Source: a virus (taxonomy: Duplodnaviria; Heunggongvirae; Uroviricota; Caudoviricetes). Taken from it: a DNA stretch of 9,242 bases. The stretch lies in the IMG/VR virus record IMGVR_UViG_2700989544_000006; one strand, given 5' to 3'. The translations under genes were made by a program, and so were the position numbers. Below the pieces are notes generated by a model. That model was not told the origin of the DNA, did no database searches, and saw only the letters and a program-made list of their open reading frames with translations. Shown here one piece after another: positions 94 through 8,525 of this stretch (the first letter of the stretch is position 1; each line of letters opens with the position of its first letter).

Positions 94-169
94 TGGCGCG
101 TTGTACTGGATTCGAACCAGCGACCTGGCGATTATGCGTCGCTCGCTCTCACCACTGAGCTAAAGGGCC
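94..169 (-). tRNA. tRNA-like gene resembling tRNA-Ile2/Met (CAU anticodon), probably a pseudo-tRNA
   Basis: Minus-strand read GGCCCTT-TA-GCTCAGTGGTGAGAGC-G-AGCGA-CGCATAA-TCGCC-AGGTC-GCTGG-TTCGAAT-CCAGT-ACAACGC-G-CCA. D-arm, anticodon arm (CAT at 34-36) and T-arm (GGTTCGAATCC) are canonical. The 3' acceptor strand ACAACGC pairs with 5' GGCCCTT at only 2 of 7 positions, and position 33 is G rather than the near-universal U. Confidence 0.5.
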
Positions 170-3606: not shown

Positions 3607-3996
3607 TCAGGCGGCTGCACCCGCCGTTTTCTCGTACTTACTGATAGTGATCTCGACCTTCCCTTTCGGGATAACCGGTCCCCACTCCACCAGCATTCTT
3701 TTCACCTGACTGTCGTCTTCCCACACACCCGCGTGGGTCAGGGCGTCAAACAGCGCCTTGTTATAGTTGTCCAGATCGCGGATCCTGTTATCCGGAGGAA
3801 ACAACACGATCTCCACTGAAGCAGGTGCCGACGTTGGTTTCGGCAGACGACGTAACTGCTCAATGATGGCGGCACACGCCGCGCTCTGAAATTTTCGCCC
3901 CGCCTCGCTTATCAGGCTCTTACCAGCAAATGCCCCTTTGTTGGGGTGTCGCCAGTACGTGTTCACGCTGGGCGGAAAAGGCAGTATTAGCTTCAT
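3607..3996 (-). CDS. rusA: Holliday junction resolvase RusA
   Basis: 129 aa with RusA hallmarks: LPFPPSVNTYWR N-terminus, catalytic acidic cluster RIRDLDNYNKALFDALT and WEDDSQV. Its start overlaps the upstream stop (ATGA). Confidence 0.85.
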   Translation of the reverse strand: MKLILPFPPSVNTYWRHPNKGAFAGKSLISEAGRKFQSAACAAIIEQLRRLPKPTSAPASVEIVLFPPDNRIRDLDNYNKALFDALTHAGVWEDDSQVKRMLVEWGPVIPKGKVEITISKYEKTAGAAA

Positions 3997-4646
3997 GCCA
4001 CCATCTCCCTGACCAGTTTTTCCGCCTGCTGGCGAACCTGCGCCAGAAACGCCTCACCACATGCCTCAAGTTCATCGCGCCCGATGTAGCTGATTGCCGG
4101 TCCCTTCCAGGTCTTATCGAAAACAGCAATAGCACCAGCGAAGAAAGCGCCTGTCGGCACCTGCTTCTCATCCTTCGGGATAAACCAGGCAGGCAGTTCA
4201 AAACCAATACGCCCGCGAATAAAAGTAATATGGTCCGCATCTTCCGGCCACCACACTTCGCTGGTGGCAGCTTTGATCAGGAAAACATAGCGCCCACCCT
4301 TATCACGCATGGCACTGGCATGTTTCATGATGTAACGCATGCCGGTGATGTATTGCCCCTCATGCTGACTGGCGCGGCTGTATGGGGGATTACCAAAGGC
4401 AGCACCTTTAAGCTCCGCAAGACGTTCTGACCAGTCATGCGCCAGCGCGTTATCTTCCGCCGTGTAATACGCGGCACATTTGGCGTTATCACCGTCAGTA
4501 AACAGATCCAGAACAAACGGGCCAAACAGGGTGTTAATTCCCCAGAAAATGTTGTCCGGCGTGCGCCACTGATCGCCCACTTCCTTCAGTTCATGGGCTG
4601 GTTTGTTCCGCAGTTCTACCAGCGCCTGGCAATATTTATTATTCAT
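3993..4646 (-). CDS. Phage-type DNA N6-adenine methyltransferase (Dam family)
   Basis: Contains the NPPY catalytic motif (FGNPPYS) and the conserved DQWRTPDNIFW N-terminal block. Start chosen at MNNKYCQ (ATG 4644-4646) with a GGGGG RBS; the ORF track start at 4691 lacks an RBS. Confidence 0.8.
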   Translation of the reverse strand: MNNKYCQALVELRNKPAHELKEVGDQWRTPDNIFWGINTLFGPFVLDLFTDGDNAKCAAYYTAEDNALAHDWSERLAELKGAAFGNPPYSRASQHEGQYITGMRYIMKHASAMRDKGGRYVFLIKAATSEVWWPEDADHITFIRGRIGFELPAWFIPKDEKQVPTGAFFAGAIAVFDKTWKGPAISYIGRDELEACGEAFLAQVRQQAEKLVREMVA

Positions 4647-4740
4647 TAAGCCCCCACGTAAAAAGCATCCGCAATGTCTCCGGAAGTACACCCCGGATGG
4701 GCTTCAATGAATTTCTGAACTTCATTCAAAAGACTCATGA

Positions 4741-5559
4741 TCACCCCCTGAATCCTTCCGGGATCTGGCTGTAGTCCACGTTGTCGTAACTGGCTTTGAA
4801 GTACGGGTCCTCGCGTCTGACTGCAGATACCGCAGGAACTTCCCAGGATTCTTCGAAATGACGATCCGGGCCAAAGAACGTGACAGCCTGTTTCACAAAT
4901 TGTGTGCCGCTGTTACCCATCGCAGATACCCAGCCCGCGTAGCGTTTCACACCTTCCAGCATGGTTTCGGGGTTTACCCCCTCATTCAAACGGGCTTTCC
5001 AGGCTTTGAAGGCTGCAGATTTTGAATTGCCACCAGCACGTTTTGGATAGGCCAGCCATGCCTGCTCAAACTCCGGAGAGTATTCCGGTCGGTTTGAACG
5101 AACTCGCACAGACTCATCAGCAGATGCACCAACAGCTATTGGTTCATTGACTGGTTCTTTGACTGGTTCAAAAGAGTGACTGGTTCTGGGTGAATCTCCT
5201 GCACTACCCCCTGGTGCAACTCCTGCACTACCTGGTGAATTTGCTGCACCAGATAGTGAATTATTTGCACTACCCCCTAGTGAATCTCCTGCACCATCAA
5301 GATGAAGGAGATAGATATTACTTGAGTTACCTTTTTCACCTTTCCGGGTGACTTTTTTTACCAGCCCGGAATCACAAAGGGCCGCAATATGATTCATCAC
5401 AGAACGTTTGCTAATCTCGCACTGGTCAGCAATATGCTGGTAGCTGGGCCAGCACTCACCCTGATCGCTGGCATTATCAGCCAGCTTGATCAGAACCAGT
5501 TTTCGCAATGGATTACCCACTCGAATTTTCATCGCTTTAACCATCAGCTCCATACTCAT
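4741..5559 (-). CDS. Replication initiation protein (lambda O-like; N-terminal HTH replisome-organiser domain)
   Basis: N-terminus (KIRVGNPLRKLVLIKLADNASDQGECWPSYQHIADQCEISKRSVMNHIAAL) is a winged-helix replication-initiator domain, followed by a low-complexity linker encoded by iterons and a conserved C-terminal domain (EFEQAWLAYPKRAGGNSKSAAFKAWKARL). Strong RBS GGAGGT 4 nt upstream. Confidence 0.75.
   Translation of the reverse strand: MSMELMVKAMKIRVGNPLRKLVLIKLADNASDQGECWPSYQHIADQCEISKRSVMNHIAALCDSGLVKKVTRKGEKGNSSNIYLLHLDGAGDSLGGSANNSLSGAANSPGSAGVAPGGSAGDSPRTSHSFEPVKEPVNEPIAVGASADESVRVRSNRPEYSPEFEQAWLAYPKRAGGNSKSAAFKAWKARLNEGVNPETMLEGVKRYAGWVSAMGNSGTQFVKQAVTFFGPDRHFEESWEVPAVSAVRREDPYFKASYDNVDYSQIPEGFRG
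5148..5298. repeat. Iteron array (candidate replication origin) inside the O-like gene
   Basis: Three perfect TGACTGGTTC direct repeats (5148, 5160, 5177), then five 21-22 bp repeats of consensus GGTGAATCTCCTGCACTACC (5189-5298). An AT-rich stretch follows at 5299-5360. Confidence 0.6.
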
Positions 5560-5780
5560 GCTGCACCTCCGAGATGCTTCATGTTTTTTCCGGAGCGAAA
5601 GGCTATAAGCGGCATACTGACGCGGTAATTACGGCCCAGCGGTTCACAAATCACCTTCTGACATTCACGGTCAACCAGGCTAACACGTAGAACATGCCCT
5701 GCAGGCGTGGTGTACCACTGACCGGGGCGAGGACAACGGAAAGTCTGATTGGTAAATCGTTTGAAAATATTCCGGATCAT
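5556..5780 (-). CDS. Hypothetical small protein (74 aa)
   Basis: ATGA start/stop overlaps with both neighbours (5777-5780 and 5556-5559) and an AAGGGGG RBS; no recognisable motif. Confidence 0.5.
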
Positions 5781-6970
5781 TTGCGCCCCCTTACCTCTGA
5801 AGAGTTCAGCGACGAATGAATAAGACGGGCAAGAAATGCCGCATCGTTAATTCGGTCATACAGACTTACAGCCAGCGGTGATTCAGCTTTTTCCAGCATG
5901 GGATAAAGCTGCTGCAACCAGACCTGATGAATTGATGAAATGTAGGAATAGAGAACGCTGGCGTTATGTGCAACGTCGCTCGGTACAGAGGGCTTTGAAA
6001 GCTGTTTCTCCATCTGGTTAAAGGCATTGATGTATGCCTCTTTGAACTGGGCAGCACGTTTGCCAGTGAAGCCCATTGCCAGGAACGCGAAGCCGTCGCG
6101 GGTGATGTGGTAGCAAGGAAGTTTGCGAGTACCGCCGTTGGGCTGGTGTACCAAAATTGATGTCTCCGCAAAATTGCGGGCACAAAACTCTGGAGAACAA
6201 TCCAAAATGCGGATCTTTTTCAGAACATCGTCATGACGTTTAGAGAAGAAGTCAGCAACAGCCAAAGAAGATGTAACAGCCTGACCATCAACGATGGCAA
6301 TTTCAGGTTGAGAGAGGGTTGGGAGAGTAGTCATGGTGACAGCCCCGGTAGTCAGTTTTTCAGAAAACTCACCACATGGGACGCCAATCACAGAGGTGGT
6401 GAGACGTACAGGGTTGGCGTTACCGGAGACTACCGAACCCGGCCCGACCGAAGTCGGCCCTGTACGCCCCACCATAATTTGGGCGTAGCAATGCTCATGA
6501 CACGAAAAAACCGCATGAGCGCGGTTATGCTCAGTAATCAATTTCAGGACGCCAATCCCGGCACCCGCTTTATAAGGTGCCTGAACAGTGTAACGTCCCG
6601 GAATGGCAGAATCAATGTGCTGGTGGTCCTTCACACTCAACAAAATCACGCCTGAATTTCCACAAAGGACTAAAGCACTCATGCGGGTAGTCTTTGCGAA
6701 GATAGATAACGCGCTGTGTTTCTGGCTCCCAACGAATGACTCTGACGGGCACTCCGTAGTGATCTTTGAACCAGCGGTTAACTTGTCGCAAAGGACTGTC
6801 TCCTTCTGCCGGTTGAAATCACCCACAGCCCACTCTGCAAAGCTGTGGGTTACAATTTCCCTGTCACCTGGTACATTCACTGCATAGCAATACTCCACCT
6901 TCGCTTTTCCACCCGGTACAGGAAGCGCAATCAGTTGCGAGCGACGGTAGTGTGTTGTTAAACTGTTCAT
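5777..6970 (-). CDS. Composite protein: uncharacterised N-terminal region (about 210 aa) fused to a Rha-family phage regulatory domain
   Basis: Residues about 215-320 ([33 protein letters not shown]...[31 protein letters not shown]) match the Rha domain. The upstream 212 codons are in the same frame with no stop, and the ATG at 6970 overlaps the upstream gene's stop (ATGA). Confidence 0.6.
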
Positions 6971-7807: not shown

Positions 7808-7873
7808 AATGTAGGATATCCAACATGCCAATGTCAAGAATCCTACATGGGCATGTGGTAGGATTGCCTACAT
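7808..7873. promoter_or_regulatory. Right operator region (OR) with pR-like promoter for the cro-like gene
   Basis: 18-bp near-palindromic operator ATGTAGGATATCCAACAT (7809-7826), plus related palindromic elements TCCTACATGGGCATGTGGTAGGA (7841-7863) and GTAGGATTGCCTAC (7858-7871), the last overlapping the cI start. Minus-strand promoter: -35 TTGACA (7832-7837), 18-nt spacer, -10 TACATT (7808-7813). Confidence 0.6.
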
Positions 7874-8525
7874 GATGAACATGAGTGATCGTATTCGCCA
7901 AAGGCGAAAAGAACTGAACCTGACACAACAAGCACTGGCTGATTTGACTGGTGTGAACCGTGTCACGGTTACTGGATGGGAAAAGGACGACTACCAACCA
8001 AATGGAGCCAACCTTCAAGCCCTAGCCAACGCACTTAAATGCGATCCTCTGTGGCTTGTTAGCGGAAAAGGCTCGCCTGAACCAAAGATAAATCTAAAAC
8101 CTGAAATATTCGCAGTTAAAAAAGTCCCCCTCATCTCGTGGGTTCAGGCGGGTTCATGGACAATGACGGAGCCTGGTGTCAGGAAAGAAGATGCTGAAGA
8201 GTGGGTTTATACTACCGCCCTTGTATCAGAAATGGCATTTGCACTACGGGTCCGTGGTGATTCAATGACCAATCCCCTCGGCTCACCATCGATACCAGAA
8301 GGTTCTATCGTTATCGTAGAGCCAGATATTATTGATACAGAGTGTATTAACGGAAAAATCGTTGTTGCCCATATCAATGGTGGGCAAGAAGCGACACTCA
8401 AAAAATTTGTTGAGGACTGGCCGAACAGGTATCTCGTCCCACTAAATCCTAACTATAAAACTATTGAATGCGGTGAAAACTGCAGAATAGTTGGTCTTGT
8501 CAAACAAGTAATAATGGATTTTTGA
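7872..8525 (+). CDS. CI-like prophage repressor (HTH plus S24 LexA-like autopeptidase domain)
   Basis: N-terminal XRE-type HTH (LTQQALADLTGVNRVTVTGWEKDD), candidate Ala-Gly cleavage site (VQAGSW), Ser nucleophile in RGDSM and Lys in TLKKF, the CI/LexA architecture. Start could be 7872 or 7881. Confidence 0.85.
   Translation: MMNMSDRIRQRRKELNLTQQALADLTGVNRVTVTGWEKDDYQPNGANLQALANALKCDPLWLVSGKGSPEPKINLKPEIFAVKKVPLISWVQAGSWTMTEPGVRKEDAEEWVYTTALVSEMAFALRVRGDSMTNPLGSPSIPEGSIVIVEPDIIDTECINGKIVVAHINGGQEATLKKFVEDWPNRYLVPLNPNYKTIECGENCRIVGLVKQVIMDF

What the first reader, a model, noticed from the sequence alone, without database searches (positions are those of the whole stretch)
5148..5360. Two families of iterons plus an AT-rich tract inside the O-like initiator gene: probable origin of replication
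Three perfect 10-bp repeats (TGACTGGTTC) and five 21-22 bp repeats (consensus GGTGAATCTCCTGCACTACC) lie in the linker-coding part of the replication initiator, flanked by an AT-rich stretch of roughly one-third G+C at 5299-5360. This mirrors lambda ori, which sits inside gene O as iterons plus an AT-rich unwinding region. Here the AT-rich tract lies on the N-terminal-coding side of the iterons, and there are two distinct iteron families.
Basis: partly seen in the sequence, partly recalled or inferred. Interest (0 to 1): 0.5.

Follow-up and report, generated by a model that had tools for sequence, protein, structure and literature searches.

The report
Prophage replication origin inside initiator gene
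The repeats are real and are very probably the replication origin of a lambda-like E. coli prophage, embedded in its own initiator gene as in phage lambda; the unexpected part is a neighbouring 30-base block conserved base for base across phages of many bacteria.

Summary
Both repeat families are confirmed at the stated coordinates, inside a minus-strand initiator gene (4741-5559) of an SfV/ST64B/Stx2c-type lambdoid prophage. They fall in the part that codes for a disordered linker.

The five 21-24 bp repeats behave as initiator-binding iterons:
- Each has a 15-bp two-fold symmetric core, GTGCA-N5-TKCAC.
- About 80 relatives carry 3-8 such units at the same 21-24 bp spacing.
- In 17 of 42 non-redundant arrays, at least one unit sits in a different reading frame.
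- The half-site sequence changes together with the predicted recognition helix, not with the C-terminal domain.

The 10-bp repeats belong to a second, different element. It is a 30-nt block (5160-5189) that always abuts the last iteron. Its synonymous sites are invariant from E. coli to Pseudomonas, Vibrio and Shewanella phages, and some relatives read it in other frames. It continues as GAAYC repeats spaced 17 and then 12 nt.

The AT-rich tract (33.9% G+C) is real but modest. It codes for the wing of the DNA-binding domain and is absent in high-G+C relatives, so it is probably not the unwinding site.

Verdict: a lambda-style origin inside the initiator gene, in an initiator family that is not lambda O. 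Origin function itself is untested. I found no prior description of these sequences in the open literature searched.

The parts
4741..5559 (-). Replication initiator gene (272 aa): N-terminal winged helix, disordered linker, helical C-terminal domain
   Evidence: ORF list. Pfam HTH_36 at residues 17-67, E=2.8e-11, with no Phage_rep_O hit. PHROG phrog_270 'replication initiation protein', E=4e-88. 98-99% identical to SfV orf39, ST64B sb42, cdtI orf46 and the Stx2c phage genes. AlphaFold2 model.
5296..5559 (-). Coding region of the N-terminal winged-helix DNA-binding domain (residues 1-88)
   Evidence: AlphaFold2 pLDDT 81-91 over helices 16-28, 39-46 and 50-62 plus a beta-hairpin wing at 66-84. 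Nearest solved folds are generic winged helices, including the DnaD N-domain; none is significant.
5374..5412 (-). Codons of the predicted recognition helix (about residues 50-62, SKRSVMNHIAALC)
   Evidence: Helix 50-62 in the model. Residues here change together with the iteron half-site across relatives.
5280..5294 (.). Iteron core 1, first in the coding direction: GTGCAGGAGATTCAC on the coding strand
5256..5270 (.). Iteron core 2: GTGCAAATAATTCAC on the coding strand
5235..5249 (.). Iteron core 3: GTGCAGCAAATTCAC on the coding strand
5214..5228 (.). Iteron core 4: GTGCAGGAGTTGCAC on the coding strand, a perfect 5+5 inverted repeat
5190..5204 (.). Iteron core 5, the last one: GTGCAGGAGATTCAC on the coding strand. 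It directly abuts the conserved block.
   Evidence: In every relative that has the block, the last core touches CCAGAACC and the last spacing is 24 nt in nearly all arrays.
5160..5189 (.). Family-wide conserved 30-nt block, CCAGAACCAGTCACTCTTTTGAACCAGTCA on the coding strand. It contains the 10-mers at 5160 and 5177.
   Evidence: Each of its 9 codons uses a single codon across 11 divergent relatives, against 1 of 30 invariant-residue columns in the N-domain (Fisher p=4.7e-8). Majority-base frequency is 0.95, against 0.82 for the best 30-nt stretch of the N-domain, in 42 non-redundant sequences. Shewanella, Aliivibrio and mEp044 relatives read it in other frames.
5136..5159 (.). Continuation of the GAAYC-repeat block: the third 10-mer (5148-5157) and a fourth, degenerate GAACCA (5140-5145)
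   Evidence: GAAYC is 21-fold enriched in the 66 nt after the last iteron, with spacings of 17 and then 12 nt, in 42 non-redundant relatives. The 12-bp unit GAACCAGTCAAR varies from 1 to 4 copies among near-identical prophages.
5299..5360 (.). It codes for the wing of the winged helix (about residues 67-87) and is probably not a dedicated origin element.
   Evidence: 33.9% G+C, in the lowest 4.7% of windows. Not conserved as an AT-rich tract in relatives.
4741..5135 (-). Coding region of the rest of the linker and the C-terminal domain, presumed to recruit the helicase or its loader. This domain is exchangeable among relatives.
   Evidence: PHROG matches to C-terminal parts of replication, DnaD-like and primosomal proteins. 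No Pfam hit. Natural chimeras are joined at the conserved block. Different downstream helicase or loader genes go with different C-terminal domains.

Best explanation
Window 5136-5294 is the core of the prophage's replication origin. It lies inside the initiator gene, in the stretch that codes for a disordered linker, so the protein tolerates the DNA signals.

Proposed mechanism:
- Dimers of the initiator's N-terminal winged-helix domain bind the five two-fold symmetric 15-bp cores (GTGCA-N5-TKCAC). The cores are spaced 21-24 bp, about two helical turns, so they lie on one face of the DNA. The result would resemble the lambda O-some.
- The last iteron directly abuts a block conserved across the family: CCAGAACCAGTCAC-TCTTTT-GAACCAGTCA, followed by further GAACC repeats at 12-nt steps.
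- I infer that this block is where the assembled initiator opens the duplex or engages one strand. The exchangeable C-terminal domain would then bring in the helicase. In this prophage that would be the host DnaB, possibly with DnaC, because no loader or helicase gene follows the initiator.

What is shown and what is inferred:
- Shown: the anatomy; DNA-level rather than protein-level constraint on both repeat families; co-variation of half-site with recognition helix; the exclusive link between the block and this initiator family.
- Inferred: actual binding, origin activity, and the role of the conserved block.
For: Context. The window is a lambdoid early-right operon on the minus strand: cI, cro, cII-like, Rha/Ash, the initiator, Dam, RusA, KilA-N, DUF968, Q. 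The repeats fall in residues 90-138, which AlphaFold2 leaves disordered, between a confident winged helix and a helical C-terminal domain.

Iterons:
- About 80 relatives from Enterobacterales, Vibrio, Aeromonas, Shewanella, Pseudomonas, Marinomonas and others have 3-8 units at 21-24 bp spacing. Consensus cores are symmetric at 8-10 of 10 arm positions in most classes, with different half-sites in different classes: GTGCA/TGCAC, GTGAC/GTCAC, GGGCA/TGCCC, TGCCA/TGGCA.
- 17 of 42 non-redundant arrays contain a unit in another reading frame (spacings 23 and 22). The same core then encodes SAGDAP in one unit and VVQEIHQ in the next.
- The half-site class follows the recognition helix. S[KR]RSV[MI]NHI goes with GTG[CA]A..T[GT]CAC. 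Helices with ..MR.. go with GTGAC..GTCAC in four groups of relatives (Erwinia/Izhakiella, Vibrio D186, Aliivibrio, mEp044). xRSTVKxHI goes with GGGCA..TGCCC. SKSAVRxHI goes with TGCCR..YGGCA.
- C-terminal domains are swapped independently. S137 and SI5 share a C-terminal domain but differ in N-domain and iterons. Chimeras P0067, P0069 and P0073 are joined exactly at the block.

Conserved block:
- Synonymous sites are invariant (Fisher p=4.7e-8), and it is the most conserved DNA stretch of the gene.
- It is conserved although read in different frames.
- It stays at 35-51% G+C in all hosts, so in Pseudomonas relatives it sits about 10-13 points below the gene mean.
- GAAYC is 21-fold enriched there, at stereotyped spacings of 17 and 12 nt.
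- Distant family members keep the layout with diverged motifs.
- The coding strand is A+C-rich: 36 of 54 bases.

Precedent. Lambda, P22 and L carry iterons inside the initiator gene (PMC8022706). In lambda and Stx phages, iterons plus an adjacent tract form the origin, and O protein also binds single strands of that tract (PMC7466680). Plasmid Rep proteins bind one strand of the repeats in their unwinding element (title and abstract of PMC4081077).
Against: - There is no experiment. Binding, unwinding and replication are all inferred.
- There is no strongly AT-rich tract of the lambda kind. The conserved block is about 43-46% G+C, so an unwinding role is not obvious from composition.
- No DnaA-box or IHF consensus lies in the region.
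- Near-identical proteins range from 242 to 302 aa, which corresponds to about 1 to 9 units. Some prophages therefore carry very few iterons, and these may be defective.
- The helix-to-half-site co-variation partly reflects shared ancestry and was not tested with a phylogenetically controlled statistic.
- One class (Pseudomonas, DRSTVRKHI) has a core with little symmetry: 2 of 10 arm positions.
Confidence: 0.72

Rival explanations
1. The repeats are only a by-product of a low-complexity Gly/Ser/Ala/Pro protein linker that grows and shrinks by slippage. They have no function as DNA.
For: The repeats encode 7-8 residue peptide repeats (GGSAGDSP and similar) in a segment predicted to be disordered. 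In this window all five units are in frame, with spacings of 24, 21, 21 and 24 nt. Copy number varies among close relatives.
Against: - Cores are two-fold symmetric in several classes with unrelated sequences and unrelated encoded peptides.
- 17 of 42 arrays have out-of-frame units in which the DNA core is kept and the peptide changes completely.
- Within a unit the outer 5+5 bases are conserved and the central 5 vary.
- The 10-mer occurs in two frames in this window and in three frames across the family.
- Synonymous sites in the block are invariant.
Confidence: 0.04
2. The symmetric repeats are true binding sites of the winged-helix protein, but they serve autoregulation, a transcriptional roadblock or exclusion of related phages. 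The origin lies elsewhere.
For: Winged-helix dimers on symmetric sites are typical of repressors. RefSeq calls the protein only a 'helix-turn-helix domain-containing protein'. Nothing here measures replication.
Against: - PHROG places the protein with replication initiators, at E=4e-88.
- The gene sits where O sits in a lambdoid operon. In relatives it is followed by DnaC/DnaB, helicase or primase-helicase genes.
- No other repeat array of four or more units exists in the window.
- 33-45 kb circular records of this phage type carry this gene, and no plasmid replicon is typed in the one inspected.
Confidence: 0.08
3. The conserved 30-nt block is not an origin component. It is a module-boundary sequence kept because homologous recombination there exchanges the N-domain-plus-iteron unit against C-terminal domains. 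Alternatively it is kept for a conserved peptide motif. The origin would then consist of the iterons plus the AT-rich tract on the N-terminal-coding side.
For: Natural chimeras are joined exactly at the block, and C-terminal domains of at least four kinds follow it. The stretch before the first iteron averages 7.4 G+C points below the gene mean across 42 relatives, and in this window it is the lowest in the gene.
Against: - A boundary kept only by recombination would not hold 10-mers in shifted frames and at altered spacings (15, 12 or 14 nt) in Shewanella, Aliivibrio and mEp044 relatives. Nor would it keep the GAACC periodicity in 42%-identical relatives.
- A peptide motif would not fix the synonymous sites while tolerating T-to-I and P-to-S changes.
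- The AT-rich tract codes for the conserved wing and is 45-58% G+C in Pseudomonas relatives.
Confidence: 0.16

Closest known systems
oriLambda inside gene O of phage lambda, and the 6-iteron origins of Stx phages 933W and P27
   Same: - The origin is embedded in the linker-coding middle of the initiator gene of a lambdoid early-right operon.
- It has several two-fold symmetric iterons of about 15-19 bp, phased at about two helical turns.
- The iterons are bound by the N-terminal domain. They are type-specific, while the adjacent segment on the C-terminal-coding side is shared.
(PMC7466680; the type-specific versus shared pattern is from general knowledge of lambda, 434, 82 and phi80 origins.)
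   Different: - The initiator is not a Pfam Phage_rep_O protein. It matches HTH_36, with a weak DnaD_N-like hit.
- There are five iterons with a different sequence.
- There is no approximately 40-bp strongly AT-rich tract. In its place is a 43-46% G+C block of GAAYC direct repeats, conserved base for base across many host genera.
- No P-like loader gene follows the initiator.
Origins inside gene 18 of Salmonella phages P22 and L
   Same: Iterons lie within the coding region of the origin-binding protein, and each phage has its own iteron sequence. P22 has four repeats of about 20 bp. L has six imprecise 11-bp repeats (PMC8022706).
   Different: The initiator sequences and the iterons are different. 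No family-wide conserved flanking block is described there. P22 and L encode their own DnaB-type helicase (gene 12), whereas this prophage encodes none.
Iteron plasmids (RK2 TrfA, F RepE, pPS10 RepA) with 13-mer repeats in the unwinding element
   Same: A winged-helix initiator binds tandem iterons. Next to them lies a block of short direct repeats where the duplex opens and where Rep binds one strand in a sequence-specific way (title and abstract of PMC4081077; PMC4980987).
   Different: - Plasmid iterons are bound by Rep monomers through two winged-helix domains and are not internally symmetric.
- The plasmid origin lies outside the rep gene.
- The plasmid unwinding element is AT-rich, whereas this block is not.
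DnaD-type proteins and phage initiators with a DnaD-like N-terminal winged helix (for example SPP1 G38P, whose oriL lies inside gene 38; from general knowledge)
   Same: There is a weak Pfam DnaD_N match (23.2 bits, below the cut-off of 27), and the DnaD N-domain is among the nearest folds. PHROG labels parts of the C-terminal region 'DnaD-like helicase loader'. The origin lies inside the gene.
   Different: No significant sequence or fold match (E of 7e-3 or worse). No match to any solved structure by sequence. The host range here is Gammaproteobacteria.

Membership tests
Lambda-type origin inside the initiator gene (oriLambda kind) | The origin signals lie inside the initiator's own coding region, between the DNA-binding N-domain and the C-terminal domain | tested here: met
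   The repeats at 5136-5294 encode residues 90-138 of the 272-aa initiator. This lies between a confident winged helix (residues 1-88) and a helical C-domain, in a segment with pLDDT below 50.
Lambda-type origin inside the initiator gene (oriLambda kind) | Three or more tandem iterons with internal two-fold symmetry, phased at about two helical turns | tested here: met
   Five 15-bp cores, GTGCA-N5-TKCAC, with 4-5 of 5 arm positions complementary, spaced 24, 21, 21 and 24 bp. The same layout occurs in about 80 relatives.
Lambda-type origin inside the initiator gene (oriLambda kind) | Iteron sequence is type-specific and inherited with the N-terminal domain, not with the C-terminal domain | tested here: met
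   Half-site classes follow the recognition-helix classes. S137 and SI5 share a C-domain but differ in N-domain and iterons. Chimeras are joined after the iterons. This was not controlled for phylogeny.
Lambda-type origin inside the initiator gene (oriLambda kind) | A strongly AT-rich unwinding tract next to the iterons on the C-terminal-coding side | tested here: not met
   The stretch after the last iteron is 43-46% G+C. The only AT-rich tract (33.9% G+C) is on the N-terminal-coding side, is modest, and is not conserved.
Lambda-type origin inside the initiator gene (oriLambda kind) | The initiator binds the iterons, and the fragment supports initiator-dependent replication | not testable with these tools
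   Needs EMSA or footprinting and a plasmid replication assay.
Lambda O protein family (Pfam PF04492, Phage_rep_O) | Significant match to the Phage_rep_O profile | tested here: not met
   A Pfam scan at E up to 0.01 returns HTH_36 (E=2.8e-11), DnaD_N (below its cut-off), B-block_TFIIIC and HTH_20, but not Phage_rep_O.
SfV orf39 / ST64B sb42 / YfdO-like 'HTH_36' phage initiator family (PHROG phrog_270) | Full-length match to the family profile, and position after cII/Rha in a lambdoid early operon | tested here: met
   phrog_270, E=4.3e-88, over residues 3-271. 98-99% nucleotide identity to the SfV, ST64B, cdtI, mEp460 and Stx2c phage genes. Operon context.
Iteron-plasmid origins (Rep with WH1-WH2 domains) | Asymmetric iterons bound by Rep monomers, an origin outside rep, and an AT-rich unwinding element with 13-mers | tested here: not met
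   Here the cores are symmetric, the origin is inside the gene, and there is a single winged helix. The adjacent direct-repeat block resembles the 13-mers only in its arrangement.

The most novel reading that the evidence does not exclude
The GAAYC-repeat block is a previously undescribed, universal origin-core element of a very large family of gammaproteobacterial phage initiators. A conserved surface of the N-domain, or a host factor shared across these bacteria, would read it, possibly on one strand. It would take the place of the AT-rich unwinding tract of lambda-type origins. On the same reading, the helix-to-half-site correspondence (for example Asn-to-Arg at helix position 7 going with GTGCA-to-GTGAC) is a usable recognition code that predicts origin specificity, and hence replication compatibility, among co-resident prophages, including Stx phages.
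Probability: 0.3. Interest if true: 0.65.

Novelty: new member of a known kind. Interest (0 to 1): 0.42.

Why it matters
This initiator type is common. Matches to the gene occur in 2689 of 5426 complete E. coli genomes, and 897 of them hold at least 80% of it. It is also present in Stx2c and some Stx2a phages, cdtI, SfV and ST64B. Replication-module type has been linked to Shiga-toxin output (PMC4645166).

Public annotation calls the gene only an HTH protein and marks no origin. The anatomy worked out here gives a simple rule for locating the origin in thousands of prophages, and a concrete construct to test. It also offers a natural system, with type-specific symmetric sites next to one invariant block, for asking how a winged-helix initiator opens DNA without an AT-rich tract. 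The frame-independent conservation is a clean example of a DNA signal overriding codon choice inside a gene.

Tried and rejected
- Literature. Searches for SfV/ST64B/Stx2c origin descriptions, for 'Bacteriophage replication modules', and for the literal repeat sequences found nothing specific to this family. The SfV genome paper is not held in the library.
- Solved structures. No relative by sequence. The fold search gave only generic winged helices, at E of 7e-3 or worse.
- C-terminal domain. No Pfam family. NCBIfam gave only far-sub-threshold chance matches.
- RNA explanation. No Rfam family overlaps 5100-5400, and the block consists of direct repeats, not inverted ones.
- Promoter explanation. 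No sigma-70-like site in 4600-5900. One terminator-like hairpin, which is within chance expectation.
- Host-factor sites. No DnaA-box or IHF consensus in the origin region. The GATC-free stretch 4864-5462 is not significant.
- AT-rich tract as the unwinding element. Rejected as the leading idea because it is not conserved.
- Other origin candidates in the window. The lowest-G+C places (710-871 and 245-387) lie beyond Q at the late end and have no repeat arrays.

Full report
**Context.** The window is the early-right region of a lambdoid E. coli prophage, read on the minus strand. The order is cI (7872-8525, plus strand), cro, a cII-like gene, an Ash/Rha regulator, a small gene of unknown function (phrog_1153), the initiator (4741-5559), Dam methylase, RusA, KilA-N, DUF968 and Q. 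The initiator gene is 100% identical to one in E. coli O111:H8 strain 99.1145. It is 98-99% identical to SfV orf39, ST64B sb42, cdtI orf46, mEp460 and the Stx2c phage genes. The protein matches Pfam HTH_36 and PHROG phrog_270 ('replication initiation protein', E=4e-88), but not Pfam Phage_rep_O, the lambda O family. No loader or helicase gene follows it.

- TGACTGGTTC occurs exactly three times, at 5148, 5160 and 5177, and nowhere else in the window.
- Five 21-24 bp units have 15-nt cores at 5190, 5214, 5235, 5256 and 5280.
- The tract 5299-5360 is 33.9% G+C. It is the lowest stretch in the gene, but about ten other places in the window are equally low or lower.
- In the coding direction the order is: wing of the winged helix (the AT-rich tract), five repeats, then the 10-mers.
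- An AlphaFold2 model gives a confident winged helix for residues 1-88, with the recognition helix at about 50-62. The linker at 90-155 is disordered and the C-domain is helical. The repeats therefore lie where the protein sequence is least constrained.

**The 21-24 bp units are DNA signals, not peptide repeats.** On the coding strand the cores read GTGCA-N5-T(T/G)CAC. The outer 5+5 bases are conserved and form an inverted repeat, perfect in the unit at 5214-5228, while the central five vary. I collected 14 annotated phages, 80 IMG/VR loci and 80 loci from species-representative genomes that encode a related N-domain.
- Almost all have 3-8 such units at 21-24 bp spacing, with the last spacing nearly always 24.
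- The half-sites differ between groups (GTGCA/TGCAC, GTGAC/GTCAC, GGGCA/TGCCC, TGCCA/TGGCA), but in most groups the two-fold symmetry is kept. Protein-level selection on quite different peptides cannot explain that.
- In 17 of 42 non-redundant arrays one unit is out of frame, with spacings of 23 and 22. The same core then encodes SAGDAP in one unit and VVQEIHQ in the next.

**Iteron type goes with the recognition helix.**
- S[KR]RSV[MI]NHI goes with GTG[CA]A..T[GT]CAC.
- Helices with Met-Arg at the equivalent positions go with GTGAC..GTCAC. These are Erwinia/Izhakiella SKRSVMRHI, Vibrio D186 DKRTAMRHI, Aliivibrio DRRTAMRHI and mEp044 SKRTAMRAV.
- xRSTVKxHI goes with GGGCA..TGCCC, and SKSAVRxHI goes with TGCCR..YGGCA.
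- C-terminal domains are exchanged independently. S137 and SI5 share a C-domain but differ in N-domain and iterons. Min27 and SI5 share N-domain and iterons but differ in C-domain. Natural chimeras carry a foreign N-domain with its own iterons on the window-type C-domain.
- This is the pattern known for lambda-type origins. I did not control the co-variation for shared ancestry.

**The 10-mers belong to a different element.** The copies at 5160 and 5177 sit in a 30-nt block, CCAGAACCAGTCACTCTTTTGAACCAGTCA (5160-5189), which directly abuts the last iteron in every relative that has it.
- Across 11 divergent relatives, each of its nine codons (R T S H S F E P V) uses a single codon. Only 1 of 30 invariant-residue columns of the N-domain does so; pairwise codon identity is 1.0 against 0.39, Fisher p=4.7e-8.
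- In 42 non-redundant sequences, including Pseudomonas prophages in genes of about 60% G+C, majority-base frequency is 0.95 over the block. The best 30-nt stretch of the N-domain reaches 0.82, and its third codon positions 0.53.
- The changes that do occur are non-synonymous (ACC to ATC, CCA to TCA). That is the opposite of what protein-level selection gives.
- The same DNA is read in other frames elsewhere: HPEPVTLEPV in Shewanella, RTSHRTSQLEPV in Aliivibrio, PNQSYITSK in mEp044. The spacing of the 10-mers changes as well.
- The block continues as GAAYC repeats: 3-4 copies in 66 nt in 38 of 42 sequences, 21-fold enriched over the rest of the gene, at spacings of 17 and then 12 nt.
- Relatives with only about 40% N-domain identity keep the layout with diverged motifs. 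LESphi3 has CCAGAACC followed by GAACC four times in all, at 12-13 nt steps. Vibrio phage 1.042.O has AACCATCA three times at 12-nt steps.
109 show the N-domain motif, and the others are cut by contig ends, carry slight motif variants, or (one case) appear disrupted upstream.
- The third 10-mer in the window (5148) is part of a 12-bp tandem unit whose copy number varies from 1 to 4 among near-identical prophages.

**The AT-rich tract is a weak feature.** It codes for the conserved K/N/S/Y-rich wing. Across 42 relatives the equivalent stretch is only 7.4 G+C points below the gene mean, and it is 45-58% G+C in Pseudomonas relatives. By contrast, the conserved block stays at 35-51% G+C in every host, so in high-G+C relatives it sits about 10-13 points below the gene mean. 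In lambda the unwinding tract lies on the C-terminal-coding side of the iterons (PMC7466680). Here that position is held by the GAAYC block.

**Most likely mechanism.** Initiator dimers occupy the five phased, symmetric sites and form an O-some-like complex. The invariant neighbouring block is where the duplex opens or where one strand is engaged. This is by analogy with lambda O binding single strands of its AT-rich tract (PMC7466680) and plasmid Rep proteins binding the repeats of their unwinding elements (PMC4081077). The exchangeable C-terminal domain recruits the helicase, here presumably the host's. The first step rests on strong comparative evidence. The second and third steps are inference.

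**Alternatives excluded or weakened.** No Rfam family, promoter-like site, DnaA box or IHF consensus lies in the region. No other array of four or more repeat units exists in the window. Several 33-45 kb circular 'plasmid' records in PLSDB carry this gene; the one inspected is a phage genome of this type with no plasmid replicon typed. This is weak support for autonomous replication driven by this module.

**Novelty.** Iterons inside the initiator gene are textbook for lambda and are noted for P22 and L (PMC8022706). I found no description of the origin of this initiator family or of these sequences in the searchable literature. The review most likely to cover it (Weigel and Seitz 2006) is not held. 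I file the finding as a new member of a known kind. The frame-independent, base-for-base conserved GAAYC block in place of an AT-rich tract is the part that could prove to be a real variant.

Noticed in passing
window 6392-6479 (-) and 6504-6580 (-): Rfam gathering-level hits to C4 antisense RNA (RF01695, 82 bits) and isrK (RF01394, 59 bits). Both lie inside the mechanically called ORF 5777-6970, which carries the Ash and Rha domains. The true antirepressor start is probably downstream of these RNAs, which suggests an antirepressor control module like P1 c4/ant or Gifsy isrK/anrP.
   Followed up: partly
window 3993-4740 (-) and loci L002, L004, L008-L012: No P, DnaC or helicase gene follows the initiator; Dam methylase comes next. 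Relatives with other C-terminal domains or tails are followed by DnaC plus a helicase (PhiR49_2), a DnaB-type helicase (phiV039C, ZF40, BUCT708) or a primase/helicase (S137, SI5). The C-terminal part therefore seems to co-vary with the helicase partner.
   Followed up: partly
proteins P0001-P0042 and loci L001, L024, L091: Near-identical initiators range from 242 to 302 aa because the iteron array varies from about 1 to 9 units. 78 of 80 close IMG/VR relatives have five units, and cdtI has eight. Variants with 1 or 2 units may mark defective prophages.
   Followed up: partly
proteins P0067, P0069, P0073: Natural chimeras: Min27-type or Klebsiella-type N-domains, each with their own iterons, are fused to the window-type C-domain exactly at the conserved RTSHSFEPVKEPVNEP block. 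The block therefore also acts as a recombination joint.
   Followed up: yes
window 5336-5351 (+): A terminator-like hairpin (TCACCTTTCCGGGTGA followed by a T-run) runs antisense to the initiator gene, inside the AT-rich tract. One such site is within chance expectation (1.3 in shuffles).
   Followed up: no
window 104-163 (-): A tRNA-like Rfam hit (37 bits, model positions 7-64 of 71) lies downstream of the Q/late region. The matching O111:H8 prophage has an annotated tRNA-Met in the equivalent place.
   Followed up: no
PLSDB records NZ_CP148393.1 (L296), CP077666.1, NZ_CP019281.1, NZ_CP118695.1: Circular 'plasmid' records of 33-45 kb carry this initiator. The one inspected (NZ_CP148393.1, 44.6 kb) is a phage genome of this type with no plasmid replicon typed, probably an excised or replicating prophage assembled as a plasmid.
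   Followed up: partly
window 4864-5462: About 600 nt without any GATC, covering the putative origin and lying next to a phage Dam methylase gene. About 2 sites would be expected, so this is not significant.
   Followed up: no
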